Origin: Mobula hypostoma
Lineage: Eukaryota
Length of the DNA stretch: 64,000 nt
Assembly (NCBI RefSeq): GCF_963921235.1
Contig: NC_086097.1
Span: forward strand, 34,660,001-34,724,000
Reading direction: 5' to 3'
The position numbers and the translations under genes are program-made. Shown piece after piece: positions 28 to 45,899 of the stretch. The number at the start of each line of letters is the position of its first letter. Within the stretch, counting starts at the first letter, position 1. A model generated the notes under the pieces. That model did not search any database and had not been told where the DNA came from. It was given only the letters and a program-made list of their open reading frames with translations.

Positions 28-200
28 ACTGTGGAGGCCAAGTCTTTATATATACTTCATGCAGAGGTTGATAGATTCTTGAATGGTCAGGGCATGAGGG
101 ATACAGGGAGAAGACTGAGAGGAAAACAGATCAGTCATGATGGAATGGCAGAGCAGACTCCATAGGCCAAATGGCCTAAATCTGCTCCTATATCTTATGC
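28..200 (+). mobile_element. CR1 LINE 3' end fragment
   Basis: CR1-type 3' UTR (ATGGCAGAGCAGACTC...GGCCAAATGGCCTAAATCTGCTCCTATATCTTATG), similar to other tails in the window. Confidence 0.7.
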
Positions 201-2605: not shown

Positions 2606-2706
2606 GGTCCTGAAGAAGGATCTCGGCCCAAAACATCAACTGTTTATTCATTTCTATAGATGCTGCCTAACCTGCTGCATTCCTCCAGCATTTTGTGTGT
2701 GTTGCT
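2606..2706 (+). mobile_element. Penelope terminal-repeat fragment with decayed hammerhead motif
   Basis: GGTC-CTGAAGA-AGGATCTCGGCCC-AAAA-CA-TC-AACT, homologous to 18921-18956 with three CG>CA changes. Confidence 0.7.
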
Positions 2707-2920: not shown

Positions 2921-5423
2921 ACATAGAAAAATAGAAACATAGAAAACCTACAGCACAATACAGGCCCTTCCACCCACAAAGTTGTGCCGAACATGTCCCT
3001 ACCTTAGAAATTACTAGGCTTACCCATAGCCCTCTATTTTTCTAGGGTCCATGTACTTATCCAAAAGTCTCTTAAAAGACCCTTTCGTATCCGCCTCCAC
3101 CACCATTGCCAGCAGCCCATTCCACGCACTCACCACTCTCTAAAAAATTTACCCCGACATCTCCTCTATACCTACTCCCAAGCACCTTAAACCTGTGCCC
3201 TCTCGTGGCAACCATTTCAGCCCTGGGAAAAAGCCTCTGACTATCCCACATGATCAATGCCTCTCATCATCTTGTACACCTCTGTCAGGTCACCTCTCAT
3301 CTTCCATTGCTCCAAGGAGAAAAGGCTGAGTTCACTCAACCTATTTTCATAAGGCATGCTCCCCAATCCAGGCAACATCCTTGTAAATCTCCTCTGCACC
3401 CTTTCTATGGTTTCCACGTCCTTCCTGTAGTGAGGTGACCAGAACTGAGCACAGTACTCCAAGTGGAGTCTGTCCAGGGTCCTATATAGCTGCAACATTA
3501 CCTCTCGGCTCCTAAATTCAATTCCATGATTGATGAAGGCCAATACACCGTATGCCTTCTTAACCACAGAGTCAACCTGCGCAGCTGCTTTGAGCATCCT
3601 ATGGACTCGGATCCCAAGATCCCTCTGTTCCTCCACACTGCCAAGAGTCTTACCATTAATACTATATTCTGCCATCATATTTGACCTACCAAAATGAACC
3701 ACTTCACGCTTATCTGGGTTGAACTCCATCTGCCACTTCTCAGTCCAGTTTTTCATCCTATCACTGTCCCGCTGTAACCTCTGGTAGCCCTCCACACTAT
3801 CCACAACACCTCCAACTTCTGTGTCATCAGCAAACTAACCCATCCCTCCACTTTTTATAAAATCACGAAGAGTAAGGGTCCCAGAACAGATCCCCGAGGC
3901 ACTCCACTGGTGACTGACCTCCATGCAGAATATGACCCGTCTACAACCATTCTTTGCCTTCTGTGGGCAAGCCAGTTCCGGATCCACAAAGCAATGTTCC
4001 CTTGGATCCCATGCCTCCTTACTTTCTCAATAAGCCTTGCATGGGGTACTGTATCTTATCAAATGCCTTGCTGAAATCCATATACACTACATCTACTGCT
4101 CTTCCTTCATCAGAGTGTTTAGTCACATCCTCAAAAAATTCAATCAGGTTTATGAGGCACGACCTGCCCTTGACAAAGCCATGCTGACTATTCCTAATCA
4201 TATTATACCTCTCCAAATGTTAATAAATCCTGCCTCTCAGGATCTTCTCCATCAACTTACCAACTACAGAAGTAAGACTCACTGGTCTATAATTTCCTGG
4301 GCTATGTCTGCGCCCTTTCTTGAATAAAGGAACAACATTCGCAACCCTCCAATCCTCCGGAAACTCTCCCATCCCCATTGATAATGCAAAGATCATTGCC
4401 AGAGGCTCAGCAATCTCCTCCCTCGCCTCCCACAGTAGCCTGAGATACATCTCATCCAGTCCCGGCAACTTATCCAACTTGATGCTTTCCAAAAGCTCCA
4501 GCACACCCTCTTTCTTAATATCTACATGCTCAAGCTTTTCCGTCTGCTGTAAGTCATCACTACTATCACCAAGATCCTTTTCCATAGTGAATACTGAAGT
4601 GAAGTATTCATTAAGTACCTCTGCTATTTCCTCCAGTTCCATACACACTTTCCCACTGTCACACTTGATAGGTCCTATTCTTTCACGTCTTATCCTCTTT
4701 CTCTTCACATACTTGTAGAATGCCTTGGGGTTTTCCTTAATCCTGCCCGCCAAGGCCTTTTCATGGCTCCTTCTGACTCTCCTGATTTCCTTCTTAAGCT
4801 CCTTCCTGTTCGCCTTATAATCTTCTAGATCTCCAACATTACCTAGCTCTCTGAACCTTTTGTAAGCTTTTCTTTTCTTCTTGACTAGATTTATTACAGC
4901 CTTTGCACACCACGGTTCCTGTACCCTACCATAACTTCCCTGTCTTATTGGAACATACCTATGCAGAACTCCACACAAATATCCCCTGAACATTTGCCAC
5001 ATTTCTTCCGTACTTTTCCCTGAGAACATCTGTTCTCAATTTAAGCTTCCAAGTTCCTACCTGATAGCCTCATAATTCCCCTTACCAGTTAAATGCTTTT
5101 CTAACTTGTCTGTTCCTAACTCTCTCCAGTGCTATTGTACAGGAGATAGCATTATGATCACTATCTCCAAAATGCTCTCCCACTGAGAGATCTGACACCT
5201 GACCAGGTTCATTTCCCAATACCAAATCAAGTACAGCTTCTCCTCTTGTAGGCTTATCTACATATTGTGTCAAGAAACCTTCCTGAACACACCTAACAAA
5301 CTCCACCCCATCTAAACCCCTTGCTCTAGGAGATGCCAATCGATATTTGGGAAATTAAAATCTCCCATCACAACAACTCTGTTATTATTACACCTTTCCA
5401 GGATTTGTTTCCCAATCTGCTCC
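2921..5423 (-). mobile_element. CR1 LINE, 5'-truncated, ORF2 disrupted
   Basis: Endonuclease end (HFGDSDHN), [33 protein letters not shown], and a (TTCTATGT)-type tail at 2921-2945. Several stops and frameshifts. Confidence 0.95.
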
Positions 5424-5674
5424 CTATCCATCTCATGCACTTTGCTTCTCCTTGTTTCTTGATAAAATGAATGAGAATAATTCAGAACTGATTTGTGAAC
5501 GAACTTCTATTCTGTGGGACCATCTGTTTGCATACCAAAATACTGCATTATCATGTTTTCCAACAGTCCAGTTCCAACTATTATAGTCCTCATGGCATCT
5601 GTGATGATCTCAGCTGGAGTGTAATCCAACATTAGAAACTGCAAACAAGAGAAATTCAGCAGAAAAACTGATTT

Positions 5675-6030
5675 CAGCCATGATCTTATTGAATGGCAGA
5701 GCAGGCTCGATGGGCCAAATGGCCTACTCCTGCTCCTATTTCTTATGCAATGTGCGTGCAATTGTCAGGCTCTTGAACAAAAGAGGATAACTACACTCTT
5801 TGTATTTCTGGTGTTCCCACAATCAATTATCTCACTTTAAGGACTCTATCTTGTTATTTCAGGCTCTCCTTATTTATTGTCATTTATTTATATTTGCATT
5901 TGCAGTTTGTTGTTCTTTGATCCAATTTACAGTTACTGTTTTATAGATTTGCGGAGCATGCCCGCAGGGGAAAGAATCTCAGGGTTGTATGTGTGTTTGT
6001 ACCTCGGAAAAAAAATTTTACTTTGAGCTT
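5675..6030 (+). mobile_element. CR1 tail (5675-5750) followed by a Rex1-type 3' UTR fragment (5765-6030)
   Basis: Similar to the tails at 61370-61445 and 42260-42465/43540-43610. Confidence 0.55.
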
Positions 6031-6779
6031 TTCAAGTGTTCGTCTAGGCAGATCTGCACACAGTTGGTGACATGAGTCTGTTACTTTAATCTGGAAAAAA
6101 TATGAGCGTTAATTGATTTGAAATGCAATCTTGCAAATTTAAATGAGCTACAATTCAATAGTGTTTTTAATGCACCGTAAAAAGCAATTAAAGACGTGCA
6201 GTGTTCTTCCTATATGTAAACTTGTATGTTTCCCTCTGTTTCTGACAACTACTTCTCCAGATTACATATAGTCGTGTTGAACCCCAGATACCTTTGCAGA
6301 GAAATGCAATGTTTACTCAAGTCCTTTCCGCTCAATATTCCACCGCATCCGGTGTTTTTTGGAGGTAGTAAGAAGTTACTCTACTGTTGCACACCGTTGA
6401 GATTGAGAGTTTCAGTGAAGCCGCATTGCTCGGTAATAGAGGCACCCCCGTCAAACTTCATTTATTGTGACGGTAGTGGTGAACCCTCGTTTTAGTTTTA
6501 AACTATCGAACAGTTTCCTAGCCCTCTTCAGAAATTTCAAAAACCAATCGATATTAGTACTAAATCTAATCATTGACTCATTATTCTCTGCTCTTTAGGA
6601 TAGAGAATTCCAAAGATTCACACCCCTCCTCATTTGACGTTTAAATGGGCGATCCTCACCAGGGGACGACATAGCTGGCTAGTGTCCAGCTTCAAGCAGG
6701 AATGCATTTTTGCCTCTTCGGTAGATTTCCCCTTTCCGTGGAACCGAACCCCCACCTCCTCCAAGGTTAAAAAAAAGCA

Positions 6780-8060
6780 ACGGTGTGTCACACATTCAAA
6801 ACAGACCACGCGGCCGGGGGCGCGCGCGCGTCCCCGTGAGCGAGCGCGGACAGGAAAGGAGGGCGCGGGCACACACACCGAGCCAGCCGGCTGCCCGCTC
6901 CTCCCTCCCTCGCCCGGGCCGGTCAGCGCGGATGGAGGAAGGTCGCAGACAGACAGCGGAGGCGTGAACAATCGGGAGGTGGGCGGAGCGGAGCCGCTGC
7001 GACACGGGTGACAGTTAGCTGAGGTCGAGTATAAGGCTGCGGGCGCTGCGGTTCCGCTGGCAGGGAAAACCGTCTCACGGACGGACCGTTTTACCATTGC
7101 CGAGCGCCGACTGTAGGCAACCCCCTTCCCCTCCCGGGGCGAGCACCGAGTTCGGGACAGATCCGCTGCCCCCTCGGGCACCGTCTGCTGGACAAGCCGT
7201 TCCTCCGGGACTGATTTCCCCGCCCCTCAGAGCACCTTCTCCGGGGCGGCACCCCCTCTCTCGTCCCGCCGCCGAGCATCGTCTCCAGGACAGCTCAGGG
7301 CTGCGTCCGGGGAGCCACCGTCTCCGGGACACAGCCCACTCCCCTCCCGTCCCGTCCCGGCCGCCACAAATATACGGACACTCGCGATGGGCGTGCGGGC
7401 GGGCGCCTGGCGCCAGCTGGTCAACTACTTGCACGACCCGCACTGGGTGGCCAGATTTCAGCAGCTGTGCGGGGTGACCGCCGTGCCCCTCGCCAACGGC
7501 AGCTGCCGCCATGAGGCCGGGACCGTGGGCGCTGGCGAGGCCGGGGCCGGGGCCAGGCACCGCGGAGACCCCGGCGGCGCCTCAAACTGGAACGGCGTGG
7601 CCTGCGAGCCGGCCGCCAGCGCTGACACCGGGCACTGCGGCGACCCCGCCGCCGCCGCCTCCAATCCGGGAGAAGCCGAGCGGCGGCTTTTTGCTGCCCA
7701 CAAGAAGAAGCCGAGGCGCAGGAACTCGCTGAACGAGGAGGCTGCGGGCGCCGAGTTCATCATCCGCAACCGGCTGCTGTACTACCTCTTCAGCCTGGGC
7801 ACCGAGCTAGGCAACGAGCTGTTCTGCATCACCTTCTTCCCCTTCTGGCTCTGGAATATCGACCCGTACGTCGGCCGCCGCTTGATCGTTATCTGGGTGT
7901 GGGTCATGTACCTGGGCCAGTGTACCAAGGATATCATCCGCTGGCCGCGACCCTCCTCTCCTCCTGTGATCAAGGTGGAGATCTTCTACGACTCTGAGTA
8001 CGGGATGCCCTCCACTCACGCTATGTCAGGCACGGCCATCCCTTTCTCGCTTTTCTTCCT
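6780..8060 (+). promoter_or_regulatory. CpG island / SGPP1 promoter and 5' UTR
   Basis: Abrupt GC- and CpG-rich block in an AT-rich background. GC box GGGCGGAG at 6981-6988 and TATA-like TATAAGG at 7030-7036. No ATG seen between the TATA-like site and 7387. Confidence 0.85.
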
Positions 8061-8079
8061 AACCTGCGGCAGATGGGAG
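7387..8079 (+). CDS. SGPP1: SGPP1 coding exon 1 (231 codons)
   Basis: ATG in strong Kozak context (GCGATGG). The N-terminus LHDPHWVARFQQLCGV and RRNSL resemble vertebrate SGPP1. PAP2 motifs C1 (KDIIRWPRP) and C2 (PSTH) are present. Ends at a phase-0 donor GAG|GTAATG (GT at 8080). Confidence 0.95.
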
Positions 8080-9221
8080 GTAATGCTATTTATTTAATTG
8101 GTAATTCATTCAGTGTTTGTGGTTCTTTGATGTGGGTGAATATTGCTGGAATATTATGGGCAAGGTGGAGACTTTTGCGCCAGTCTCCATTGGTACCAAT
8201 ACTGCCGGCAAAGTTGGAAGCCGTTCCTTTCAGTGTAGCCTTTGCCAAGATTGCTGGTTATATTTCTCCTTATAATTTGGTCATTTAACACCGTAGATTC
8301 AATGAAGGCTGGGCAACAGTGTGTTAAAATATGCATGTTTGGCTTGAGGATATTTTTAGATGTAGATCTACAAACTCCTGTACCTTCCTTAGTTCAATTT
8401 AAATGAATAACTATTTTGTTTCATGTTTCAAAACTACCGTTTGACACTCGATTGGCCTGGTACTAAACTAAAAAAAATCCAGTTTCAAACGGCTTCCTTT
8501 TCCATGTTGACCTTCAGGGCCCAGTTATGCTGGAAACTGCAACCATCTAACCCGTTTGTGTTACCTGTCACTTGACTGCTGAAATTGATCTCTCTTTATT
8601 CTACCAGTCAATCTCTCAAAATAAAAAGGCACTAACAATAAGCCTTAAACATTTCAAAAGGGGAGCAAACAAGCCTTAAGTATTGTTTAACTTGAGCAAT
8701 AATATTTATGATTGGCGTGCAATCTGTAGAAAGTGGTTTCCAGTTATTGGCACTTGAAGTGTTGGATACCACACACAAAATGTTGGAGGAACTCTCCCAA
8801 GTTGAGCAACATCTATGGAGGGGTATAAAGCAGTTCATGTTTTGGGCCTAGGCCTTTCATTTAGCTGATGCAAAATCAGATAGTGCTGTGAGTTGTTAAG
8901 AGAATGGAGCTTTATGGAAATATGGCCAAATTAAGTAAGCACATGGCAAATTCAATTTGGAAAATGAGATTATCCATTTTGATTAAACACTGATTTAAAA
9001 TGGTGAACATTTGAATGTTGTTGGTTTTCAGAGGGTCTTTTGTCTTGAAAACGAATCTATGTGATACAAGTATTAGAAGGGAAATAACATTTTGACTTCT
9101 GTGGCAAGATGACAGGAGTGATGGAGTGTTTACAGATGAGATCTCTCTAACCAAGGAAGTATATACTTGCAATTGAGGGAGTGTGCTGAAAATTCACCAG
9201 ATTGATTCCTGGCATCACAGG

Positions 9222-9355
9222 AAAAAGACAGCAAATGCTGGGAATTTGGAGCAACACAGAAAATGCTGAGGAACTTCGCAGGTCCGGCAGCATCTCTGGC
9301 GGGGGATGGGGATGGATAAAAGATATTTTGGGTCAAGATCTCAGTCTTGATGAAG
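9222..9355 (-). mobile_element. Decayed Penelope terminal-repeat fragment
   Basis: GCAACACAGAAAATGCTGAGGAACTTCGCAGGTCCGGCAGCATCT matches the family at 33385-33481. Confidence 0.6.
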
Positions 9356-12682: not shown

Positions 12683-15656
12683 AAGGTGATAAGGATAATC
12701 CTGGGAATTGTATCCTGACGAGCCTTACATCAGTGATGGGTAAGGTATTGGAGAGGATTCTTAGAGGTAGGATTTACAAGCATTTGGAGACTCATAGTCT
12801 GACTAGGGATAGTCAACAAGACTCTGAGGACAGGTTGTGCCTCAAGCCTGATTGAATTATTTGAGGAAATGACAAAACAAATTGAAGGTAGAGCAGTGGG
12901 TAAAGTGTATATGGATTTTATCAGAATTAGAATCAGGTTTATTATCGCCAGCATGTGTCATGAAATTTGTTAACTTGGCAGCAGCAGTTCAATGTAATAC
13001 AAAATATAGAAGAAAAAATATATAATAAGAAATAAGTAAATCAATTTCAGTATATGTATATTGAATAGATTAAAAATGTCCAAAAACAGAAGTAATATAT
13101 ATTTTAAAAAGTGAGGTAGTGTTCAAGGTTCCATTTAGGAATTGGATGGCAGAGGGGAAGAAGCTGTTCCTGAATCGCTGAGTGTGTGCCTTCAGGCTTC
13201 TGTACCTCCTACCTGATGATAACAATGAGAAAAGGGCATGCCCTGGGTGCTGCAGGTCCTTAATAATGGATGCACCTTTCTGAGACACCGCTCCCTGAAG
13301 GTGTCCTGGGTACCTTGTAGGCTAGTGCACAAGATAGAGCCGACGTGACTTACAACCCTCTGCAGCTTCTGTCGGTCCTGTGCGGTAGCCCCTCCATACC
13401 AGACAGTGATGCAGCCTGTCAGAATGCTCTCCACTGTACACCTGTAGAAGTTTTTGAGTGTATTTGTTGACATACTAAATCTCTTCAAACTCCTACTGAA
13501 GTATAAATGCTGACTTGCCTTCTTTATAACTACATCAATATGTTGGGACCAGGTTAGGTCCTCAGAGATCTTGACACCTAGGAACTTAAAACTGCTCACT
13601 CTCTCCACTTCTGATCCCTCTATGAGGATTGGTATGTGTTGCTTCATCTTACTCTTCCTGAAGTCCACAATTAGCTCTTTCGTCTTACTGACATTGAGTG
13701 CCAGGTTGTTGCTGCGACACCACTCCACTAGTTGGAATGTCTCGCTCCTGTGCACCTGCTCAACTCCATCTGAGATTCTGCCAACAATGGTTGTATTATC
13801 AGCAAATTTATAGATGGTATTTGAGCTATGCCTAGCCACACAGTCATGTGTATATAGAGAGTAGAGCGGTGGGCTAAGCACACACCCCTAAGGTGCACCA
13901 GTGTTGATAGTCACCGAGGAGGAGATATTATCACCAATCGGCACAGATTGTGGTCTTCTAGTTAGGAAGTTGAGGATCCAATTGCAGAGGGAGGTACAGA
14001 GGCCCAGGTTCTGCAACTTCTCAATCAGGATTGTGGGAATAATGGTATTAAATGCTGAGTTATAGTCAATGAACAGCATCCTAGACATAGGTGTTTGTGT
14101 TGTCCAGGTGATCTAAAGCCATGTGGGGAGCCATTGAGATTGCATCTGCTGTTGACCTATTGTGGCGATAGGCAAATTGCAATGGGTGCGGTTCCTTGCT
14201 GAGGCAGGAGTTCAGTCTAGTCATGACCAACCTCTCAAAACATTTCATCACTGTTGATGTGAGTGCTGCCGGGCGATAGTCATTAAGGCAGCCCACATTA
14301 TTCTTCTTAGACACTGGTACAATTGTTGCCTTTTTGAGGCAAGTGGGAACTTCCGCCCATAGCAGTGAGAGGTTGAAAATGTCCCTGAATACTCCAGCCA
14401 GTTGGTTGGCACAGGTTTTCAGAACCTTACCAGGTACTCCATCGAAGGTTCACTCTCTTTAAAGACAGCCTAACATCGGCCTCTGAGACAGAGATCACAG
14501 GGTCATCAGGTGCAGCAGGGATATTCACAGCTAAGGTTACTGAGGTTTTCAACAAGGTTCTCCATGGTAAACTCATTTAGAAAGTCATGAACATTGGATC
14601 CAGGGAATCTTGGCTGTATGGGTTTCGAATTGGTTTGTCCACAGAAGGCAGAGAGTAGTAGTAGATGGAGCGTATTCTGTCTGGAGCTCAATGGCTTGTG
14701 GTGTTTCACAGAGATCCGTTCTGGGACACCTGCTCTTTGAGATTTTTCATAATAACTTGGATGAGGAAGTGGAAGGGTGAGTTAGTAAGTTTGCAGATGA
14801 TGCAAAAATTGGTGGTGTTGTGGATAGTGCAGAAGGTTTTTGTAGGTTAGTGGGATGGGCTGAGAAGTGGCAGATGGAGCTCAATCTGGAGAAGTGTGAA
14901 GTGATTCACTTCGGAAAGTTGAACTTGTCAACAGAGTGGAAGGTTAATGGCAGGATTCTTAGCAGTGTGGGGGAACAGTGGGATCTTGGTGTTCACATCC
15001 ATAGATCCTTCAAGGTTGCTCTGCAGGTTGATGGGGAGGTTAAGAAGACATAAGGTGTATTGGCCTTTTATTAGTCAGGGAATTAACCTCAAGAACCACA
15101 AGATAGCATTGCAGCTCTATAAAATTCTGGTGAGACCACGCTTGGTGTATTATGTTCAGTTTTGGTCCCTTCATCACAGGAAGGGTGTGGAAGCTTTAGG
15201 GAGCGTGCAGGGCAGATTTACCAGGAAGCTGCCTGGATTAAAGAGCATGTTTTTATGAGGAAAGATTGAGTGGGTTAGGGCTTTTCTCTTTGGAACAAAG
15301 GAGGATGAGAGGTGATTTGATAGAGAGGTGTATCAGATGATAAGAGGCATAGATACAGTGCACAGTCAGCACCTTTTTTTCCAGGGCGGCAGTGGTTAAT
15401 ACGTGAGGGCATAATTTTAAGGTGATTGGAGAAAAGTGTGGGTGGGTGTCAGAGGTAGCTTTAAACAGTGTTTGGTGTGTGGAACATTACTGAGGGTGGT
15501 GGTAGAGACAGATACATTAGAGACATTTCAGAAACTCTTGGGGGGGAGCATATGGGTGATAGAACAATTGGAGGGTTATGTGGGAAGGAATCATTAAAAT
15601 GATCTTGGCTATAAAGGTCAGCAGAACATTGTGGGCTGAAGGGCCAGTACTGTACT
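12683..15656 (+). mobile_element. Older CR1 LINE split by a Rex1 insertion (pieces 12683-12920 and 14537-15656; last tail bases at 18601-18612)
   Basis: The RT 'VYMDF' region breaks at 12920 and the 'KAFDKVPHG' equivalent resumes at about 14537. WAEKWQMELNLEKCEVIHFG lies downstream. Confidence 0.85.
12921..14536 (-). mobile_element. Rex1/Babar-type LINE, 5'-truncated
   Basis: [69 protein letters not shown], and an AATAAA plus (TTCTGA)-like tail. Confidence 0.9.
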
Positions 15657-18594
15657 AGAAACATTGAAAACTTACAGCACAATACAGGCCCTTCGGCCCA
15701 CAAAGTTGTGTTGAACATGTCCCTACCGTAGAAATTACTAGGGTTACCCATGGCCCTCTATTTTTCTCAGCTCCATGTACCTATCCAAAAGTCTTTCACA
15801 AAACCCTATCGTATCCGCCTCCACCACCGTTGCCGGCAGCCCATTTCACACACTCATCGTTCTCTGCGTTTTAAAAAAAACTTACCCCTAACATCTCCTC
15901 TGTACCTACTCCCAAGCACCTTAAACCTGCGCCCTCTTGTGGCAGCCATTTCAGCCCTGGGAAGAAGCCTCTGACTATCCACACGATCATTGCCTCTCAT
16001 CATCTTATACACCTCTGACAGGTCACCTCTCATCCTCCATCGCTCCTAGGAAAAAAGGCCGATCCATTCAGCCTGTTTTCATAAGGCATGCTTCCCAGTC
16101 CGGTCAACATCCTTGTAAATCTCCTCTGCACCCTTTCTATGGTTTCTACATCCTTCCTGTAGTGAGGTGACCAGAATTGAGCACAGTACTCCAAGTGGGG
16201 TCTGACTAGGGTCCTATATAGCTGCAATATTATCTCTCGGCTCCTAAATTCATCTCCACGACTGATGAAGGCCAATGCACCGTATGGCTTCTTAATCACA
16301 GAGTCAACCTGTGCAGCTGCTTTGAGTGTCCTATGGACTCGGACCCCAAGATCCCTCTGTTCCTCCACACTGCCAAGAGTCTTACCATTAATACTATATT
16401 CTGCCATCATATTTGACCTACCAAAATGAACCACCTCACACTTATCTGGGTTGAACTCCATCTGCCACTTCTCAGCCCAGTTTTGCATCCTATCAATGTC
16501 CCGCTGTAACCCCTGACAGCACTCCACACTATCCACAGCACCTCCAACCTTTGTGTCATCAGCAAACTTACTAACTCATCGCTCCACTTCCTCATCCAGG
16601 TCATTTATAAAAATCAGGAAGATTAAGGGTCCCAGAACAGATCCCTGAGGCACACCACTGGTGACCGACCACCATGCAGAATATGACCCGTCTGCAACCA
16701 CTCTCTGCCTTTTGTGGGCAAGCCAGTTCTGGATCCACAAAGCAATGTCCCCTTGGATCCCGTGCCTCCTTACTTTCGCAATAAGCCTTGCATGGGGTAC
16801 TGTACCTTATCAAATGCCTTGCTGAAATCTGTATACACTACATCTACTGCTCTTCCTTCATCAACGTGTTTAGTCTAATCCACAAAAAATTCAATCAGCC
16901 TTGTAAGGCATGACCTGCCCTTGGCAAAGCCATGCTGACTATTCCTAATCATATTATACCTCTCCAAATGTTCATAAATCCTGCCTCTCAGGATCTTCTC
17001 CATCAACTTACCAACCACTGAAGTAAGACTCACTGATCTATCATTTCCTGGGCTATCTCTACTCCTTTTCTTGACAACATCCACAACGCTCCAATCCTCA
17101 GGAACCTTTCCCATCCCCATTGATAATGCAAAGATCATCGCCAGAGGCTCAGCAATCTCCTCCCTGTCCTCCCACAGTAGTCTGGGGTACATCTCATCCG
17201 GTCCGAGTGACTCTTGATGCTTTCCAAAAGCTCCAGCACATCCTCTTTCTTAATATATACATGCTCAAGCTTTTCAGTCTGCTGCAAGTCATCACTACTA
17301 TCACCAAGATCCTTTTCCATAGTGAATAATGAAGTAAAGTATTCATTAGGTACCTCTGCTATTTCCTCTGGTTTCTAACACACTTTCCCACTGTCACACT
17401 TGATAGGTCCTATTCTTTCACGTCTTATCCTCTTGCTCTTCATGTACTTGTTGAATGCCTTGGGGTTTTCCTTACTCCTGCCCGCCAAGGCCTTCTCATG
17501 GCCCCTTCTGGCTCTCCTAATTTCCTTCTTTAGCTCATAATTCCCTTTACTCCAGTTAAATGGTTTTCTAACTTGTCTGTTCCTATCTCTCTCCAATGCT
17601 ATTGTAAAGGAGATAGAATTATTATCACTATCTCCAAAATGCTCTCCCACTAAGAGATCTGACACCTGACCAGGTTCATTTAGATTTTAGATTAGATTAT
17701 GAGGACACTCAGTCCTCGTTTATTGTCACTTAGAAATGCATACATTAAAAAATGATACAATGTTCCTCCAGTATGATATCACAGAAACACAAGACAGACC
17801 AAGAATAAAACCAAATACCAAATCAAGTACAGTCTCTCCTCTTGTAGGCTTATCTACATATTGTGTCAAGAAACCTTCCTGAACACACCTAACAAATTCC
17901 ACCCCAGCTAAACCCCTTGCTTTAGGAAGATGCCAATCGATATTTGGGAAATTAAAATCTCCCACCACGACAACTCTTATTATTACACCTTTCCAGGATC
18001 TGTTTCACTATCTGCTCCTCGATATCCCTGTTACTATTGGGCGGCCTATAAAAAACACCCAGTAGAGTTATTGACTCCTTCCTGTTCCTAACCTCCACCC
18101 ACAGAGACTCTGTAGACAATCCCTCCATGACGTCCACGTTTTCTGCAGCCGTGATACTATCTCTGATCAACAGTGCCACGCCCCCACCTCTTTTGCCTCC
18201 CTCCCTGTCCTTTCTGAAACATCTAAAACCCGGCACTTGAAGTAACCATTCCTGTCCCTGAGCCATCGAAGTCTCTGCAATTGCCACAACGTCATAGCTC
18301 CAAGTACTGTTCCATGCTCTAAGCTCATCCGCTTCGTTCACAATACTCTTTGCGTTAAAGTAGACACATCTCAAACCATTGGTCTGAGCGCGTCCCTTCT
18401 CTATCACTTGCCTACCCTCTCTCACACACTGTCTCCAAGCTTTCTCTATTTGTGAGCCAACCATCTCTTCCCCAGTCTGTTCAGTTCGCTTCCCACCCCC
18501 CAACAATTCTAATTTAAACTCTCCCCATTAGCCTTAGCAAAACTCCCCACCAGGATATTGGTCCCCCTGGGACTCAAGTGCAACCAGTCCTTTT
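15657..18594 (-). mobile_element. CR1 LINE reaching the end of ORF1; same subfamily as 2921-5423
   Basis: ORF1 end (LHLSPRGTNIL), endonuclease (CVYFNAKSI, DVVAIAET, GGGVALLI, GDFNFP) and RT. TGTACT flanks both ends (15651-15656, 18595-18600). About 275 bp deleted near 17535 relative to the first copy. Confidence 0.95.
17681..17810 (-). mobile_element. About 130-bp 3' tail of a non-LTR element inserted in CR1
   Basis: Absent from the sister CR1 at 5201-5230. Matches 30508-30612. Contains hairpin GAGGAC-ACTCA-GTCCTC and an (AATCT)n tail. Confidence 0.8.
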
Positions 18595-18862
18595 TGTACT
18601 GTTCAATGTTCTGTAGAGCTGTCTGAAAGTAGCATGCTTCCTTGGTCATCACCATGCCCAGTTTGAGCTTTGACTGCCATGGCCCACACACTCCTGTTTC
18701 GGGTCAAGTGGATCAATGTATTGGTATTCATTTCCATTTCTCTGGCTGCTGTCTCCATCATCATTTGTCTTTCCCTTCCTCTTGCTTTCTTCTCTTCCAT
18801 CTTTCCCATAATTACCATGCATTCTAACTCCTCTTTCCTAATCACATTTCCAATGAAGTTAT

Positions 18863-20289
18863 ATACATCAAAGTTGCTGGTGAATGCAGCAGGCCAGGCA
18901 GCATCTGTAGGAAGAGGTGCAGTCGACGTTTCAGGCCGAGACCCTTCGTCAGGACTAACTGAAGGAAGAGTGAGTAAGGGATTTGAAAGTTGGAGGGGGA
19001 GGGGGAGATCCAAAATGATAGGAGAAGACAGGAGGGGGAGGGATAGAGCCGAGAGCTGGACAGGTGATAGGCAAAAGGGGATATGAGAGGATCATGGGAC
19101 AGGAGGTCCGGGAAGAAAGACAAGGGGGGGGGGACCCAGAGGATGGGCAAGAGGTATATTCAGAGGGACAGAGGGAGAAAAAGGAGAGTGAGAGAAAGAA
19201 TGTGTGCATAAAAATGAGTAACAGATGGGGTACGAGGGGGAGGTGGGGCCTTAGCGGAAGTTAGAGAAGTCGATGTTCATGCCATCAGGTTGGAGGCTAC
19301 CCAGACGGAATATAAGGTGTTGTTCCTCCAACCTGAGTGTGGCTTCATCTTTACAGTAGAGGAGGCCGTGGATAGACATGTCAGAATAGGAATGGGATGT
19401 GGAATTAAAATGTGTGGCCACTGGGAGATCCTGCTTTCTCTGGCGGACAGAGCGTAGATGTTCAGCAAAGCGGTCTCCCAATCTGCGTCGGGTCTCGCCA
19501 ATATATATAAGGCCACATCGGGAGCACCGGATGCAGTATATCACCGCAGTCGACTCACAGGTGAAGTGATGCCTCACCTGGAAGGACTGTTTGGGGCCCT
19601 GAATGGTGGTAAGGGAGGAAGTGTAAGGGCATGTGTAGCACTTGTTCCGCTTACACGGATAAGTGCCAGGAGGGAGATCAGTGGGGAGGGTTGGGGGGGA
19701 CGAATGGACAAGGGAGTTGTGTAGGGAGCGATCCCTGCGGAATGCAGGGGGGGGGAGGGAAAGATGTGCTTCGTGGTGGGATCCCGTTGGAGGTGGTGGA
19801 AGTTACGGAGAATAATATGTTGGACCCGGAGGCTGGTGGGGTGGTAGGTGAGGACCAGGGGAACCCTATTCCTAGTGGGGTGGTGGGAGGATGGAGTGAG
19901 AGCAGATGTACGTGAAATGGGGGAGATGCGTTTAAGAGCAGAGTTGATAGTGGAGGAAGGGAAGCCCCTTTCTTTAAAAAAGGATGACACCTCCCTCGTC
20001 CTAGAATGAAAAGCCTCATCCTGAGAGCAGATGCGGCGGAGACGGAGGAATTGCGAGAAGGGGATGGCGTTTTTGCAAGAGACAGGGTGAGAAGAGGAAT
20101 AGTCCAGATAGCTGTGAGAGTCAGTAGGCTTATAGTAGACATCAGTGGATAAGCTGTCTCCAGAGACAGAGACAGAAAGATCTAGAAAGGGGAGGGAGGT
20201 GTCAGAACTGGACCAGGTAAACTTGAGGGCAGGGTGAAAGTTGAAGGCAAAGTTAATAAAGTCAACGAGTTCTGCATGCGTGCAGGAAG
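18863..20289 (-). mobile_element. Penelope-like element (RT C-terminus + GIY-YIG endonuclease + 3' terminal repeat)
   Basis: LPFLDL..TDVYYKPTDSHSYL..SQFLRLRRICS and VIYCIRCSRCGLIYIGETRRRLGDRFAEH. 12-bp TSD CAATGAAGTTAT at 18851-18862 and 20290-20301. Removing the insert restores the RTE frame EIMKRQHNFIGNVI. Confidence 0.95.
18921..18956 (-). ncRNA. Minimal type I hammerhead ribozyme motif (intact core)
   Basis: Minus strand reads AGUC-CUGACGA-AGG(GUCUCGG)CCU-GAAA-CG-UC-GACU: stem I, core, stem II, palindromic ACGU helix III and a GUC cleavage triplet. Confidence 0.8.
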
Positions 20290-21479
20290 CAATGAAGTTA
20301 TGTTGCCTTTTCATGATCTCATACATTATTTCTCTTTTTGTTTGCTCTGTTCATGACAACCTTGTTAGATATTCGTTTCATCCATGATATTCTTTGCATC
20401 CTCCTCAAAAACTACAACTCTGCTGCTACAATTCGTTTCCTCATGTTACTAGATACTGTCCAACATTCTGAGCCTTATAACATAACTGGATAAACGTAAC
20501 ATTTCAGTACTCTGAGGCGGGTTGTCATGCCCAGTTTAGTATTGGTCAGTATACTCTTCATTCTCGTAAAGGTGTCTTTTGCCATCCCTATTCTTCTTTT
20601 GATGTACAAGTCGTACCTGCCATCTGATGTCACCCAGCTTCCTAAGTAGCAAAATTTCTGTAATTGTTTAATGTCTTCCCATTTATTCTCAGCCTGCATA
20701 TATGATTCTTCTTCTTTTTGGATATCACCATACATTCTGTCTTTTTGCAATTGTTAGATAGACCCATTTTTGCACTTTCTTCAACAATTACATCAATTAA
20801 GTTTTGTAGTTCTTCCTCCGTACTTGCAATTAACACAATGTCATCTGCATATCTAAAGTTATTGATGTTTTCACCGCCAACTTTGATTCCCAAGATGTCT
20901 CTTATTTTTTTGTAATATTGTTTCACTGTACTGTACACATTAAATAAATCAGGGGAGAAAACACACCTTTGTCTAATGCCTCTCTTAATTTTCATAAACT
21001 GACTCACTTCTCCATCTATTCTTACAGCGGCAGTTTGTTCCCAGTACAGATTTCTGATTAGGCGGAGGTCTTTCGAATCTAGATCTAGAGTTTTCTGTAA
21101 TATTTCAAATAATTTATTGTGCTTCACTTTATCAAATGCTTTTGCGTAATCAATAAAACAAACAAACAAATCTTTTTGCACTTGAATAGCTCGTTCTGAT
21201 AGTATCCTTAACATCAATATTGCGTTTCTTCTGCCTTTTGTCTTTCACAAAACCATTGTTCTTTGCCTATTTCAGCTTGTATCTTACTTTTAGCTCTTGT
21301 CATCAAAATTCTTAGAAGTATCGGTGATATGACTCATTAAACTTATGGTCCTATGTAATTCCCATTCTATTGCTTCCTTGGTAGGATCATATTTAAACTT
21401 GCAATTTTTGAAAGTTGGGGCACTAACCTGCACTTTTTTAAAGCCGATGTAGCCTGGATCAGAACAACCTGGAATCTAC

Positions 21480-24826: not shown

Positions 24827-25023
24827 CACAATGCGCTGGAGGAACTCAGCAGGTTGGGCAGCATCCGTGGAAAAGATCGGTCGACGTTTTGGGCCGGAAC
24901 CCTTTGTTCTGGCCCGAAATGTCAACTGATCTTTTCCACGGATGCTGCCCGACCTGCTGAGTTCCTCCAGCGCGTTGTGAGTGTTGCTTTGACCCCAGCA
25001 TCTGCAGATTATTTTGTGTTTAC
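24827..25023. mobile_element. Fold-back Penelope terminal-repeat insertion
   Basis: 13-bp TSD AAATCTGATCCCT (24814-24826, 25024-25036). Inverted arms 24826-24900 and 24906-24980. Confidence 0.85.
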
Positions 25024-26344: not shown

Positions 26345-26690
26345 AGAGACTGCTGATGCTAGAATCTGGAGTGAAGAAATCGATGTGGGGGGGGAGGGGG
26401 GAATCTCAGTGGGTCAAACAGCTTCTGTGGGGTGGGGATAGGAATTCATGTTTTGAATTGAGACACTTCATCAGGTCTAAGTGTGGAGAGGGACGATGTC
26501 ACTATAAAGAGGAGTGGAAGCGGGGTAAAACAGGCTGGTAAGTGATGCGTAGGTCAAGGAGAAATGTTGGGCAGATGGAGCTGATGGGTTAGAGTTGGAG
26601 ACACGGGTGGTTGGGTGGTTGGGTGTTAGGAGGAGAGAGATGAGGGCAGAAGAAAGGTCAAGGCCCACAGGGTGTGAAGAGGTCTATTCT
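26345..26690 (-). mobile_element. Old Penelope 3' fragment with degenerate hammerhead motif
   Basis: Reverse strand CTGATGA-AGTGTCTCAATTC-AAAA at about 26450-26475, next to a purine-rich tract as in 18960-19250. Confidence 0.55.
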
Positions 26691-27184
26691 AGGTGGACCA
26701 CACTTTTCCCCACCATGTCTCTTGGAAGGAAATCATCCTTCAAGTTTCTGCATATCTGCAGCATCAGCAATAGTTGTGTTTGAATCCCACAGAGAAAACC
26801 TGACACCATATTCACAAATCACAGAAGTTACAGTTAGTCCAATCAGTCTGTAATGTGCTACAGTGATGAGTAGCTTGTTCCACTGCAGCTGCGGTTTATG
26901 CAATCCCAACATTATGGGAACTAAGATCAGAAGACAGGTGGTCATTTAGCGTTGAAGAGGAAATCTAGAGAAATTCTTTGAATTCTGGAGAAAAATCAGA
27001 TTGAAATACCAGTAGCCACAAGTCATTGCAGGGACATTGCATATAACCAGTAAAATGGCTTTTGCTGGAGTAATGACATTCATGCCCGATTCAGATATTA
27101 AACATGTACAAAAATACTGCTCTCAAAACTGAAGCATTGTCTATGCTCCAATTTGGTGGAAAACTTAAGAAAAAAAAATCCTTT

Positions 27185-28230
27185 GCAAGTAAAGTGCTAG
27201 AAGAACAGAGGGTTGAGCAGTAAACTCTGGACGTTTTGGGTCAAGATCCTGCATCAGGACTGAGAGTAGGGTTGCCAGTAATAAAGAGAAGGGGAGAGGT
27301 GAGACAGGGACAGCAGGTGGTAGGTGGACTGAGGAAGGATGATGGGTAGATTCAAATGAACCCAGAAAGGAGGAAAGGAAGGAGTTCAGAGGCAGGAGGG
27401 TGATGGGTAGAAGCGGACAAAAGGAAATAAAAGGTAGATGGAGCCAGGTGCGGGAAGGAGTGGGGTGGTAGGGAGTGCCAGTGGGTGAAATGTGTGGGTA
27501 GCAGGACAATAAAACCAGGAAAGGACAAAAATGAGTGATGGGGAATGAGAATGAGAACAAAAATGCTTTAGTATTAGGAATCAGAGAGAGGGGATCAAAG
27601 GTGGTAGGGTTGCCTGAAACTGGACAATTCTACGTTCATATCCTTGCATTGTAGACTATTGAGGTTTTGTCCTGCTTGTTTTTATTGGTTCTTGCTCTTG
27701 CTTTAAGGCCAAGCACAGACGGGTCAGAAATTACACAACAATGAGCTCAGGTTGGTCACTGTGGTAGAGCACAGATGTTCTACAAAGCAGTTACTGGTCT
27801 GGGCTTGTCCCACCAATGCAGTGGAGGCCACATCAGGAGCATTGAATGTAGTAGGCATTGTTGGAGGAGGTACACATGAAACTTTATCTGACCTGGAAGA
27901 GCTACTTAAGTCCTTGGTCACGGGATAGTGAGGGGTGGGAAAGAGAGGTGGAGAAGGTGTAAGTGCCACTGTTGCATTTCCTGCACTTGTGTGAAGAAGT
28001 GCTGTGGTGGTGGGGTTGGCGCTGGATGAGCAGACCAGGGAGTGGCTGGTGGTGAGATCCAGTTGCAGCAGATGGAAATGACCAAAGGATGGTGTGCTAG
28101 CTATGAAGGTTAGTAGGGTGAAGGGCAAGAACAAGAGGAACCCTACCTCAGTTCTGTTTTGGAAGTGAGGGGGGGAAGATGGCAGTGAGAGCAGAGCTCA
28201 GGAAGTCTAAGTAATGTAAGAGTGGCTCTA
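27185..28230 (-). mobile_element. Old, degraded Penelope-like element
   Basis: Colinear with 18870-19930: terminal repeat, purine-rich tract, GIY-YIG-like region (27600-27900) and GAACCCTA..GTGAGAGCAGA. Confidence 0.7.
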
Positions 28231-28235
28231 ACCAG

Positions 28236-28401
28236 AGCAACAGATACAAAATTCTGGAGGAACCCTGCAGGTCGGACAGTATCTATGAAAAGGAATAAAC
28301 AGCCTGGTGAAGGGTCTCAGTCCAAAATCTCGACTGTTTATTCCTTTCCATAGATGGTGCCTGACCCTGCTGATTTCCGACAGCATTTAGTGTCTGTTGC
28401 T
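28236..28401. mobile_element. Fold-back Penelope terminal-repeat fragment
   Basis: Inverted arms of about 65 bp (28236-28302 and 28334-28401) enclosing CTGGTGA-AGGGTCTCAGTCC-AAAA. Confidence 0.75.
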
Positions 28402-33384: not shown

Positions 33385-33481
33385 CAACACACATAAAAGT
33401 TGCTGGTGAACGCAGCAGGCCAGGCAGCATCTCTAGGAAGAGGTGCAGTCGACGTTTCAGGCCGAGACCCTTCGTCAGGAC
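33385..33481 (-). mobile_element. 97-bp Penelope terminal-repeat insertion
   Basis: Near-identical to 18870-18955; ATCTTG duplicated at 33379-33384 and 33482-33487. Confidence 0.85.
33448..33481 (-). ncRNA. Minimal type I hammerhead ribozyme motif, second intact core
   Basis: GUC-CUGACGA-AGGGUCUCGGCCU-GAAA-CG-UC-GAC, with a 3-bp stem I. Confidence 0.72.
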
Positions 33482-37913: not shown

Positions 37914-38003
37914 TATCCCTATGCAATTGGACTACTCCTTGCTTCCAGCTGGTGCATCCTTGTATGTCTCAGTCGACTGTACATGGGGATGCATTCTGTT
38001 CTG
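37914..38003 (+). CDS. SGPP1: SGPP1 coding exon 2 (90 nt, [30 protein letters not shown])
   Basis: Not in the ORF track. T-rich tract plus CAG acceptor at 37911-37913 and donor CTG|GTGAGT at 38004. Encodes most of PAP2 motif C3 (SRxxxxxH). Phase 0-0. Confidence 0.95.
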
Positions 38004-39579: not shown

Positions 39580-39762
39580 GCACACAAGAGGTTGCAGATG
39601 TTGTAATTTAGTGCAAAAAAAACACAAACTATTGAAGGAATTCAATTTGTCAAACAACATCTGTGGAAGGAAAGGAATTGTCAACGTTTTGAGTTGAGAC
39701 CCTGCATCAAATCCTTCCAAAGAAGCTGCTTGACCCACTGAGTTTCTTAAGCAGTTTGTTTT
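39580..39762. mobile_element. Decayed, partly inverted Penelope terminal-repeat fragment
   Basis: GTCAACGTTTTGAGTTGAGACCCTGCATCAA followed by GCTGCTTGACCCACTGAGTT in the opposite orientation. Confidence 0.6.
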
Positions 39763-41224: not shown

Positions 41225-41415
41225 ACAAAACTCAGCAGGTCAGGCAGCATCTATGGAAAGAGTAAACAGTGAACGTTTCGGGCCATGATTCCTCTTCAAG
41301 ACATCAGAACATCGACTGTTTACTCTTTTCCATAAATGCTACTTGATCTGCTGAGTTTTTCCAGCATTTTGTGAGTTGCTTTAGATTTCCGGCATCTGCA
41401 GACTTTCTTGTCTTT
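41225..41415. mobile_element. Fold-back Penelope terminal-repeat fragment
   Basis: Inverted arms AAAACTCAGCAGGTCAGGCAGCATCTATGGAAAGAGTAAACAGT / ACTGTTTACTCTTTTCCATAAATGCTACTTGATCTGCTGAGTTTT around a degenerate core. Confidence 0.75.
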
Positions 41416-41899: not shown

Positions 41900-43610
41900 C
41901 AAAATAGATATTTTTCTCCTAGAAGTCTGCAAAGATTCATCTAAAACTTTGACAAGCTTCTGTAGATGTGTGGTGGAGAGCATATTGACTGATTGCATTT
42001 TGGCCTGGTAAGGAAACTCCAGTGCCCTTGAATGGAAAAGCCTACACAAAGTAAAGGATACAGCCCGTTCCACGGGTGAACCCCTCCCCACCATTGAGCA
42101 CATCTACATGGAGCGCTGTAGCAGGAAAGCAGCATCCATCACAAAGACTCCCACCTCCCAGGCCATGATCCCTTCTCACTGCTGCCATCAGGAAAGTGGA
42201 ACAGGAACCTCAGGACCCATGCCACCAGGTTGAGGAATAGTTACTGCCCCTCAAACATTAGGCACTTGAACCAGAGGGGATAACTTCACTCTCCCCATTA
42301 CTGAACTGTTCCACGACCTATTTTCAAGAGTCCTCTTTTCAAGGACTCTTCATCTCACGTTCTCGATAATTATTGCATATTATTATTTTCTTTTTGTATT
42401 TGCAGTTTGTTGTCTTTTGCTTCTTTTGCTCATTGTTTGCCCATCCAGTTGGGTCAGCCTTTCATTGGGCCAGGTGGATTCAGAACTGGCTTGCCTGCAG
42501 AAGGCAGAGGGTTGTGGTGGAGGGAGTACATTCAGATTGGAGGATTGTGACTAGTGATGTCCCACAAGGATCTGTTCTGGGACCTCTACTTTTTGTGATT
42601 TTTATTAACGACCTGGATGTGGAGGTAGAAGGGTGGGTTGGCAAGTTTGCAGATGACGCAAAGGTTGGTGGTGGTGTAGATAGTGTAGAGGATTGTCGAA
42701 GATTGCAGAGAGACGTTGATAGGATGTAGAAGTGGGCTGAGAAGTGGCAGATGGAGTTCAACCCAGAGAAGTGTGAGGTGGTACACTTTGGAAGGACAAA
42801 CTCCAAGGCAGAGTACAAAGTAAATGGCAGGATACTTGGTAGTGTGGAGGAGCAGAGGGATCTGGGGGTACATGTCCACAGATCCCTGAAAGTTGCCTCA
42901 CAGGTAGATAGGGTAGTTAAGAAAGCTTGTGGGGTGTTAGCTTTCATAAGTCGAGGGATAGAGTTTAAGAGTCGCGGGGTAATGATGCAACTCTATAAAC
43001 CTTTGGTTAGGCCACACTTGGAGTACTGTGTCCAGTTCTGGTCACCTCACTATAGGAAGGATGTGGAAGCATTGGAAAGGGTACACGGGAGATTTACCAG
43101 CATGCTGCCTGGTTTAGAGAGTATGGATTATGATCCGAGATTAAGGGAGCTAGGGCTTTACTCTTTGGAGAGAAGGAGGATGAGAGGAGACATGATAGAG
43201 GTGTACAAGATATTAAGAGGAATAGATAGAGTCGATAGCCAGCGCCTCTTCCCCAGGGCACCACTACTCAATACAAGAGGACATGGCTTTAAGGTAAGGG
43301 GTGGGAAGTTCAAGGGGGATATTAGAGGAAGGATTTTTACTCAGAGAGTGGTTGGTGCATGGAATGCACTGCCTGAGTCAGTGGTGGAGGCAGATACACT
43401 GGTGAAGTTTAAGAGACTACTAGACAGGTATATGGAGGAATTTAAGATGGGGGATTATATGGGAGGCAGGGTTTGAGGGTCAGCACAATATTGTGGGCCA
43501 AAGGGCCTGTAATGTGCTGTACTATTCTATGTTCTATGATTCTATTATATTTCTTGTATGTACTATGAATGTATTTAAGGGTTGTATATGGTGGCATAAT
43601 TTACTTTGAG
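41900..43610 (+). mobile_element. Rex1-type 3' fragment (41900-42467, resuming at about 43538-43610) split by CR1
   Basis: GTGGAGAGCATATTGACT...GCAGCATCCATCACAAAGAC...; the 3' UTR continues after the CR1 tail. Confidence 0.7.
42468..43537 (+). mobile_element. Young CR1 3' half
   Basis: [25 protein letters not shown] to the ORF2 end, with one in-frame TAG (42727-42729) and a TTCTATGTTCTATG tail. Confidence 0.95.
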
Positions 43611-43967
43611 ACCACAGAGTGAGTACTGCACAACAGAGCAGACTTCCAGATACAGAGGCAGTTTGAAGGACTCTCTTCTTCTGATACTCCACTTTAACCT
43701 GCCTGTTCAGATTTATATTTTGAGCTGTTGTATGTATGAGATTAGCAGTACCTTTGAGTCCGATGATATATTTTTATTCTGGTGTTCAGGTATGATGTAG
43801 TTCAGTGCCACTCCCATGATTTCTGGCATCTGATGGATCTTTCATCATTTTTTCCTCTGTTTGCAATAATGTAGTGGAAAACCAAAGCAATATTTTCACA
43901 GCAGGATAAATGAAGAAGAAAAAAAGGACAAATGAAAGGGGTGAAATGTTGTTCATCCGAGTACACT

Positions 43968-45499: not shown

Positions 45500-45899
45500 A
45501 ATCTCAGGAGTTTTCTAATTTGGTACTGCCCAAACAAAACTTTTAGCAAGCCGGACCATATTTGAATGTTGTTCCTGCTTCTAATCATACAGGAGATGTG
45601 AAGAAGACATTGAATTTTTGTGGAAAAGCATGTAATAACATGCTTTGTTTTTGTGTCTTATGAACTTTGGAGTTGGTAATCATGTTCCAGGTCACTTTGG
45701 CCTTGACCCAAGAATAAGCAAGTCAATCAGCTAAGAGAGATCGAGAACTGTCTTTCGCCTGTTGTGAGATGTGTGGATTTAAAGCAGGAGTGGTATTGGA
45801 CTTGGCTGTAGCATCAGTGCTCGGTCAAATTATCTGTCTGTGTACCATATCAAGTTTTATGCCTATCATTAGGTCAGACTGAACCACACCAATTTGGTA

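What the first reader, a model, noticed from the sequence alone, without database searches (positions are those of the whole stretch)
18921..18956. Intact minimal hammerhead ribozyme motif in the 3' repeat of a Penelope element inside SGPP1 intron 1
Seen: the minus strand reads AGUC CUGACGA AGG-GUCUCGG-CCU GAAA CG UC|GACU. This gives a 4-bp stem I (5 with U-G), a complete CUGANGA/GAAA core, a 3-bp stem II, and a helix III reduced to the palindrome ACGU. It lies about 300 nt downstream of a GIY-YIG ORF. Known: Penelope-like elements carry minimal type I hammerheads thought to cleave as dimers through a palindromic helix III. Inference: this 36-nt motif is a self-cleaving module that processes the element's RNA, cutting after GUC (minus strand, between 18925 and 18924). 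The class is known; whether this family has been described or is active cannot be told from the sequence.
Basis: partly seen in the sequence, partly recalled or inferred. Interest (0 to 1): 0.75.

Follow-up and report, generated by a model that had tools for sequence, protein, structure and literature searches.

The report
Penelope retroelement's minimal hammerhead ribozyme
The motif is real but ordinary: it is one of over 46,000 identical copies of an already described tiny hammerhead RNA motif at the end of a very common jumping gene, it lies antisense in an SGPP1 intron where it is likely inert, and genome-wide copy ends suggest that only a small minority of the element's RNAs were likely cut.

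Summary
In detail: a minimal type I hammerhead lies at 18920-18957 (minus strand), 299 nt after the GIY-YIG stop. It belongs to a 5'-truncated, 1.43-kb Neptune-type Penelope-like element (18863-20289, 12-bp target duplication), nested in an RTE LINE, antisense in SGPP1 intron 1. One correction: stem II is a bulged A plus GGGU/GCCU, so this subfamily has G10.1·U11.1, not the usual G-C. The exact 31-mer occurs 46,104 times genome-wide. The class was described in 2014.

The cut does not define the copies. 96 of 101 sampled copies span it, 3' ends sit about 65 and 102 nt further on, and 0 of 30 copies stopping at C17 run into flank. A faint footprint exists: starts at the predicted scissile bond number 541, against 90, 87, 201 and 179 at neighbouring bases. 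After removing microhomology junctions the excess is about 2.7-fold (1.7-4.0). A control subfamily with an altered core was inconclusive. The monomer is predicted to misfold, so cutting is likely rare and needs a dimer or the element's protein. This scan has reported the same element ends and footprint repeatedly, in this genome and in others.

The parts
18920..18957 (-). Minimal type I hammerhead motif. Stem I arms 18953-18957 and 18920-18924; core CUGACGA 18946-18952; bulged A 18945; stem II 18941-18944/18933-18936 closed by G10.1·U11.1; GAAA 18929-18932; palindromic ACGU 18926-18929; C17 18925; predicted cut 18925|18924
   Evidence: Sequence, descriptor scan and shuffles, folding, subfamily comparison
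18863..20289 (-). 5'-truncated Neptune-type Penelope-like element, 1,427 bp, 95-98% identical to the best family matches; starts a few codons after the RT YIDD motif; ends at the family's short 3' end (+89 from the core start)
18863..18919 (-). Element sequence downstream of the hammerhead, up to the short 3' end; lacks the ~38-nt tail seen in long-ended copies
18958..19250 (-). Pyrimidine-rich 3' UTR / pLTR upstream of the hammerhead
19251..19802 (-). C-terminal ORF piece: CX4CX2C linker followed by GIY-YIG endonuclease
   Evidence: PF01541, 23.5 bits vs cutoff 22.6
19574..20289 (-). RT thumb/linker ORF piece, out of frame with the endonuclease piece (frameshifted copy)
   Evidence: compared with L035 translations
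18851..18862 (.). Target-site duplication, copy at the element's 3' end (12 bp)
20290..20301 (.). Target-site duplication, copy at the element's 5' end (12 bp)
18600..21244 (-). Decayed LINE into which the element inserted (RT at 20642-21244, C-terminal part at 18600-18862); the name 'RTE' is from recall of the protein motifs
   Evidence: (RVT_1 E 5e-19)
33385..33481 (-). Second copy of the same family: ~97-bp solo fragment starting 3 nt before the core, same 31-mer, 6-bp target duplication
   Evidence: L350
8080..37913 (+). SGPP1 intron 1 (exon 1 coding 7387-8079, exon 2 37914-38003, exon 3 from 48035)

Best explanation
The 36-38 nt motif is the minimal type I hammerhead carried in the terminal repeat of a very abundant Neptune-type Penelope-like retrotransposon, and this copy is a truncated, antisense intronic insertion that is likely inert. 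In the parent element the motif likely cleaves only rarely and conditionally. As a monomer it is predicted to misfold, with G5-G8 pairing to C15.2-C17. It would need a second hammerhead, pairing through the ACGU palindrome, and/or the element's protein, as shown for the Anolis element PAc. Reverse transcription is inferred to start about 65 or 102 nt downstream of the cut on RNA that is uncut or re-joined, so copies run through the ribozyme. A small minority of templates were likely cut, leaving copies that begin at G1.1. Shown: sequence, element anatomy, copy number, end distributions. Predicted: folding. Inferred: cleavage, dimer or protein help, RT start sites.
For: Motif and shuffles. GIY-YIG, RT and CX4CX2C linker. 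A full pLTR-ORF-pLTR copy with hammerheads 3,517 nt apart (L035). 46,104 exact motif copies and 102,252 downstream-anchor copies. 96 of 101 copies span the cut; 3' ends at +84..100 in 50 of 101 and +125..142 in 37 of 101, with matching loose contig ends. 39 matches stop at C17 and 0 of 30 examined enter flank. 12 of 12 head-to-head pairs have one long and one short end. Open-core fold probability 0.0006. Five subfamily majorities keep all 9 stem I/II pairs, with one-sided changes only. Start counts 90, 87, 541, 201, 179 at +26..+30. PMC4209133 and PMC11167929 (main texts read).
Against: No cleavage or RNA-end data: no raw reads were offered and contigs cannot show ends. No double-sided compensatory change was seen. 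This subfamily has G10.1·U11.1 (145 of 150 youngest-type copies), departing from the conserved G-C pair. Among young copies the core decays like its near flank (6 of 610 non-CpG core cells; 9 of 732 at -18..-6 without column -12, summed by hand). Over half of the +28 starts examined are microhomology junctions (37 of 70). The altered-core control was inconclusive (P about 0.16). Folding energies ignore tertiary contacts and Mg2+.
Confidence: 0.82

Rival explanations
1. In this young subfamily the motif no longer cleaves at all. It is a structural or protein-binding signal, or a passenger, and the excess of starts at +28 comes from microhomology and RT pausing in the hairpin.
For: G10.1·U11.1 and a dominant misfold. 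An older successful subfamily carries CUGCYGA (15 of 23 copies with C at position 6). 37 of 70 +28 starts show GAC/GACT microhomology and only 1 of 9 flank-adjacent +28 starts has a target duplication. PMC11167929: catalytic mutants do not affect insertion in vitro and no RNA-seq reads begin or end at the cut.
Against: After dropping microhomology junctions, +28 is still about 155 (102-217) against 36, 26, 80 and 90, with a step exactly at the scissile bond. Core and stems persist across five subfamilies. Six of 30 loci have a hammerhead stopping exactly at C17 joined to a second copy (no control).
Confidence: 0.3
2. The ribozyme is the routine processing step: two pLTR hammerheads cut out a unit-length 3.5-kb RNA that is re-ligated into a circle and copied (the model of Cervera and de la Pena), so most templates were cut and re-joined.
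For: Hammerheads bracket the ORF 3,517 nt apart (L035). A re-ligated circle would also give copies that span the cut. The model is proposed in PMC4209133.
Against: 5' ends pile up at -8..0 (18 of 101; 1,926 starts at -3), which fits a linear RNA end there better than a circle. No circular junction can be told from a tandem copy in contigs. In PAc, uncut RNA is the dominant substrate in vitro (PMC11167929).
Confidence: 0.12
3. This copy has a host function, such as cutting SGPP1 pre-mRNA or an antisense RNA.
For: The core is intact and lies inside a gene.
Against: It is antisense to SGPP1, so the pre-mRNA carries the complement. 62 of 89 sampled copies are equally intact. It is identical to 46,104 genomic 31-mers. 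It has no partner hammerhead in the insertion.
Confidence: 0.02

Closest known systems
Minimal hammerheads (min-HHR) in pLTRs of metazoan Penelope-like elements, incl. fish Xena, Poseidon and Neptune (Cervera and De la Pena 2014, PMC4209133; parts 1-2 of 4 read, one of two supplement files searched)
   Same: Type I topology, 4-5 bp helix I, unpaired base between 9 and 10.1, palindromic 15.2-16.2, location in the pLTR, most copies solo and tied to truncated elements
   Different: G10.1·U11.1 instead of G10.1-C11.1; only a 4-bp helix II; at least 46,104 identical copies against about 4,000-9,000 reported for coelacanth and Xenopus; no shark or ray term found in the searched supplement file
PAc, Poseidon element of Anolis carolinensis (Frangieh et al. 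2024, PMC11167929; parts 1-2 of 4 read)
   Same: Hammerhead at the pLTR-ORF junction; two 3' ends downstream of it that define a 30-40 nt tail; copies made from uncut RNA
   Different: Here the cut lies in the 5' UTR, about 140 nt before the likely ATG (L035), not inside the ORF; Neptune/Nematis-type zinc linker present; no biochemistry for this family
Neptune/Nematis EN+ PLE clades (Craig et al. 2021, PMC8557442; passages read)
   Same: RT plus C-terminal GIY-YIG, CX2-5CxxC linker, partial tandems, inverted 5'-truncated copies, one-sided tail
   Different: Clade not placed by phylogeny here
Non-LTR retrozymes (bioRxiv 10.64898/2026.07.22.740005; parts 1-2 of 5 and passages read)
   Same: Type I hammerhead related to pLTRs; reported in one chondrichthyan genome
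   Different: Retrozymes are non-coding tandem arrays; this is the end of a coding element, inserted singly

Membership tests
min-HHR (type I) of metazoan PLEs | Catalytic boxes CUGANGA and GAAA, and a UH cleavage site | tested here: met
min-HHR (type I) of metazoan PLEs | Helix I (4-5 bp) and helix II flanking the core, type I connectivity | tested here: met
   all 9 pairs kept in five subfamily majorities; one-sided changes only
min-HHR (type I) of metazoan PLEs | Helix III absent, with palindromic 15.2-16.2 | tested here: met
   ACGU at 18929-18926
min-HHR (type I) of metazoan PLEs | Located in the pLTR of a PLE | tested here: met
   (L035 carries it in both pLTRs)
min-HHR (type I) of metazoan PLEs | Typical feature outside the published descriptor: unpaired base between 9 and 10.1 | tested here: met
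min-HHR (type I) of metazoan PLEs | Typical feature outside the published descriptor: G10.1-C11.1 pair | tested here: not met
   G·U in this copy and in 145 of 150 youngest-type copies; G-C in the four other subfamily majorities
min-HHR (type I) of metazoan PLEs | Self-cleavage as a dimer or with protein | not testable with these tools
   Only an indirect genomic footprint
Rfam hammerhead families | Gathering-score match | tested here: not met
   0 hits in the window; the E-value mode was not run
EN+ Penelope-like element | Single ORF with RT and C-terminal GIY-YIG | tested here: met
   GIY-YIG above cutoff in the window; RVT_1 E 9e-6 (below cutoff) plus GIY-YIG in L035; Atlas. All copies inspected were frameshifted or truncated
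EN+ Penelope-like element | pLTR partial tandems, inverted truncated copies, one-sided 30-40 bp tail | tested here: met
   (12 of 12 pairs asymmetric)
Neptune/Nematis clades | CX2-5CxxC linker before the endonuclease | tested here: met
   CX4CX2C in ORF 19251-19802; definition from PMC8557442
Neptune/Nematis clades | RT phylogeny placing it in Neptune rather than Nematis | not tested
   No named reference sequences were fetched
Non-LTR retrozyme | Non-coding tandem array with a hammerhead in each unit | tested here: not met
   Single coding insertion with a target duplication

The most novel reading that the evidence does not exclude
The genome keeps a fossil record of in vivo cleavage by a minimal Penelope hammerhead. 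Copies start at the scissile bond about 2-5 times more often than at neighbouring bases, and a few RT jumps land exactly on the 3' end of the upstream cleavage product, while most copies come from uncut RNA that begins just upstream of the ribozyme. The ribozyme would then be a rarely firing, protein- or dimer-gated switch rather than the step that defines the template, even with a G10.1·U11.1 wobble.
Probability: 0.45. Interest if true: 0.5.

Novelty: new member of a known kind. Interest (0 to 1): 0.27.

Why it matters
The motif class has been known since 2014, and this copy is one of tens of thousands, so the finding as stated is ordinary. The open question is whether these weak minimal hammerheads cut in vivo and what for: PMC4209133 had no in vivo evidence, and PMC11167929 found no RNA ends at the cut. 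A family with over 100,000 young copies gives a countable record. It shows that the cut does not set insert ends and probably happens in a small fraction of templates. That is a modest, testable addition. I did not find it in four literature searches, but it has been noted several times in this scan.

Tried and rejected
Rfam gathering scan: 0 hits. Fold z-scores of the motif are unremarkable (-0.29 and 0.13), so stability is no evidence. Sequencing runs: no RNA holder listed; the four runs laid were contigs and cannot show starts, ends or strand. The 3'-end census is anchored downstream of the cut, so it cannot detect copies ending there; I re-tested with an upstream anchor. The raw +28 peak (541) was not taken at face value: forward, microhomology and complex junctions were dropped (50 of 70 at +28; 30 of 50, 21 of 30, 18 of 30 and 25 of 50 at +26, +27, +29, +30). 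A looser classification gave 209 against 43, 29, 94 and 97. The CUGCYGA subfamily control gave 91 vs 52 raw and 5 of 30 vs 9 of 30 clean, ratio 1.0 (0.34-2.6), not distinguishable from the main family (P about 0.16). The subfamily 'core more conserved than flank' counts are partly circular, because groups were defined by the downstream flank and filtered for similarity in the motif; I use them only for pairing. Two papers checked for the effect of G10.1·U11.1 gave no measurement (passages of PMC2837043 and PMC544870). One supplement file of PMC4209133 could not be searched and bioRxiv supplements are closed, so a published shark or ray motif there cannot be excluded. No protein homologue search, phylogeny or covariance model was run.

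Full report
Observation. The minus strand at 18957-18920 reads UAGUC CUGACGA A GGGU CUCG GCCU GAAA CG UC GACUG. Both catalytic boxes, a 5-bp stem I (one U·G), the ACGU palindrome in place of helix III and a GUC cleavage triplet are present; the predicted cut is 18925|18924. A strict descriptor finds this one hit in the window and none in 200 of 200 shuffles. The 31-mer occurs twice in the window and never in 100 shuffles. Rfam gives no hit at gathering score. The second register also matches the published min-HHR layout (PMC4209133). This copy therefore closes stem II with G10.1·U11.1.

Context. The motif lies 299 nt after the stop of a GIY-YIG ORF. The element spans 18863-20289 between 12-bp target duplications. 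It starts a few codons after the RT YIDD motif and is frameshifted, so it cannot encode a working protein. It interrupts a decayed LINE (RTE by recall) and lies antisense in intron 1 of a gene whose best Atlas match is SGPP1. A natural full-length relative, L035, has pLTR-ORF-pLTR structure with hammerheads 3,517 nt apart, an adjacent inverted copy, RT and GIY-YIG domains and a CX4CX2C linker. That linker marks the Neptune and Nematis clades (PMC8557442 passages). The 3.48-Gb genome is probably a shark or ray; that is my inference, echoed by earlier notes, and no call names the organism.

Abundance and decay. The exact 31-mer occurs 46,104 times and a downstream 30-mer 102,252 times. In a census of 101 anchors from the first 3 Mb of C1, 62 of 89 copies spanning the motif have an intact core. 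Among 61 ungapped long copies, non-CpG core positions differ in 6 of 610 cells, like the near flank (9 of 732, summed by hand, column -12 left out); G8, a CpG site, differs in 5 of 61. An intact core in this copy therefore reflects youth, not selection. Across five subfamily majorities (n = 150, 132, 23, 12, 5) all nine stem I/II pairs are kept, with one-sided changes at 2.5 (U/C) and 11.1 (U/C) and no double-sided change; one older subfamily has C at position 6.

Where copies end. With the core start as 0, the cut follows +27. 3' ends fall at +84..100 in 50 of 101 and +125..142 in 37 of 101; contigs from independent runs show loose ends at the same two places. All 12 head-to-head pairs combine one long and one short end. 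This is the known one-sided tail, which in the Anolis element marks two internal RT start sites (PMC11167929). Because that census is anchored past the cut, I re-tested with an upstream anchor: only 39 matches lose homology right after C17, and 0 of 30 examined continue into non-element flank (the three rows flagged there are upstream element repeats). The cut does not set insert 3' ends. For 5' ends, 96 of 101 copies span the cut, 18 start at -8..0 and 2 at +28; genome-wide, 1,926 start at -3.

A faint cleavage footprint. Counting copies whose homology begins after three mismatches gives 90, 87, 541, 201 and 179 at +26 to +30: a sharp step at the scissile bond. I classified 50 of 90, 30 of 87, 70 of 541, 30 of 201 and 50 of 179. 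At +28, 37 of 70 are inverted junctions using GAC/GACT microhomology, which pools starts there without any cleavage. Keeping only flank-adjacent or microhomology-free inverted junctions (20 of 50, 9 of 30, 20 of 70, 12 of 30, 25 of 50) gives about 36, 26, 155, 80 and 90; +28 against the mean of the four neighbours is 2.7 (1.7-4.0), and against +30 alone 1.7 (1.05-2.8). Against this reading, only 1 of 9 flank-adjacent +28 starts has a target duplication, and the CUGCYGA subfamily control (ratio 1.0, 0.34-2.6) does not differ significantly (P about 0.16). Six of 30 loci are short direct repeats in which the first hammerhead stops exactly at C17, as an RT jump onto a cleaved 3' end would give, but they were selected by that pattern and have no neighbour control. 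At most a few tenths of a percent of copies carry the footprint.

Mechanism. The isolated 38-mer is predicted to fold into a hairpin in which G5-A6-C7-G8 pair with C15.2-G16.2-U16.1-C17 (pair probabilities 0.98-0.99; open-core form 0.0006), and a modelled tandem dimer in the active register (-10.4) is far above its minimum-energy fold (-29.2) (nearest-neighbour model, no tertiary contacts or Mg2+). This fits published results: min-HHR monomers were inactive and dimers weak (PMC4209133), and the PAc hammerhead cut only with the element's protein and was dispensable for insertion in vitro (PMC11167929). The best reading is a real but gated ribozyme of the parent element that fires in a minority of RNAs, copied passively into tens of thousands of dead fragments like this one. 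Rivals are a non-cleaving structural remnant (0.3), obligatory cut-and-circularise processing (0.12) and a host role (0.02).

Known and new. The class, its place in pLTRs and its presence in fish Neptune elements are published. Four searches found no paper describing this family or a cut-site footprint; one supplement file and bioRxiv supplements were not seen. Earlier notes of this scan report the same element ends, the pile-up before the motif and the cut-site excess in this and other genomes; they are unchecked notes and not independent support. Verdict: a new member of a known kind, interest 0.27.

Noticed in passing
window 33385-33481 (-); genome-wide: Solo ~97-bp copy starting 3 nt before the core. 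Such starts are the main 5'-end peak (18 of 101 at -8..0; 1,926 at -3), possibly a transcription start or RNA end at the hammerhead's edge.
   Followed up: partly
L482, L487, L493, L494, L502, L504 (around 1500-1560): Short direct repeats in which the first hammerhead stops exactly at C17 and a second copy starts at -4 to -27; possible RT jump onto a cleaved 3' end; no neighbour control.
   Followed up: partly
window 24827-24984, 28241-28398, 39625-39758, 41229-41375: Older head-to-head hairpin insertions of related Penelope ends with decayed hammerheads.
   Followed up: partly
window 2606-2703, 8770-8860, 9254-9340, 26402-26480: Further decayed solo remnants of older subfamilies; 14 profile hits in the 64-kb window and 32 in 150 kb of random stretches.
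   Followed up: partly
L422, L424, L448 and others (subfamily B): An older subfamily has CUGCYGA in place of CUGANGA (A6 to C) yet spread widely.
   Followed up: partly
L035:3643-3760: The segment between the cut and the long 3' end is predicted to fold into a long hairpin pairing the tail with the post-ribozyme stretch, a candidate protein-binding or RT-start signal conserved across subfamilies.
   Followed up: no
L075 and L141 (around their anchors): Two copies share the same unrelated ~75-nt sequence joined at +36, suggesting a chimeric or co-mobilised unit.
   Followed up: no
window 27165-28197 (-): A more diverged Penelope-like fragment with a degenerate hammerhead-like end near 27230-27260.
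   Followed up: no
window 2930-4800, 15650-18530, 42460-45500, 59970-61400: Several CR1/L2-like LINE fragments with RT or endonuclease frames; family names from recall.
   Followed up: no
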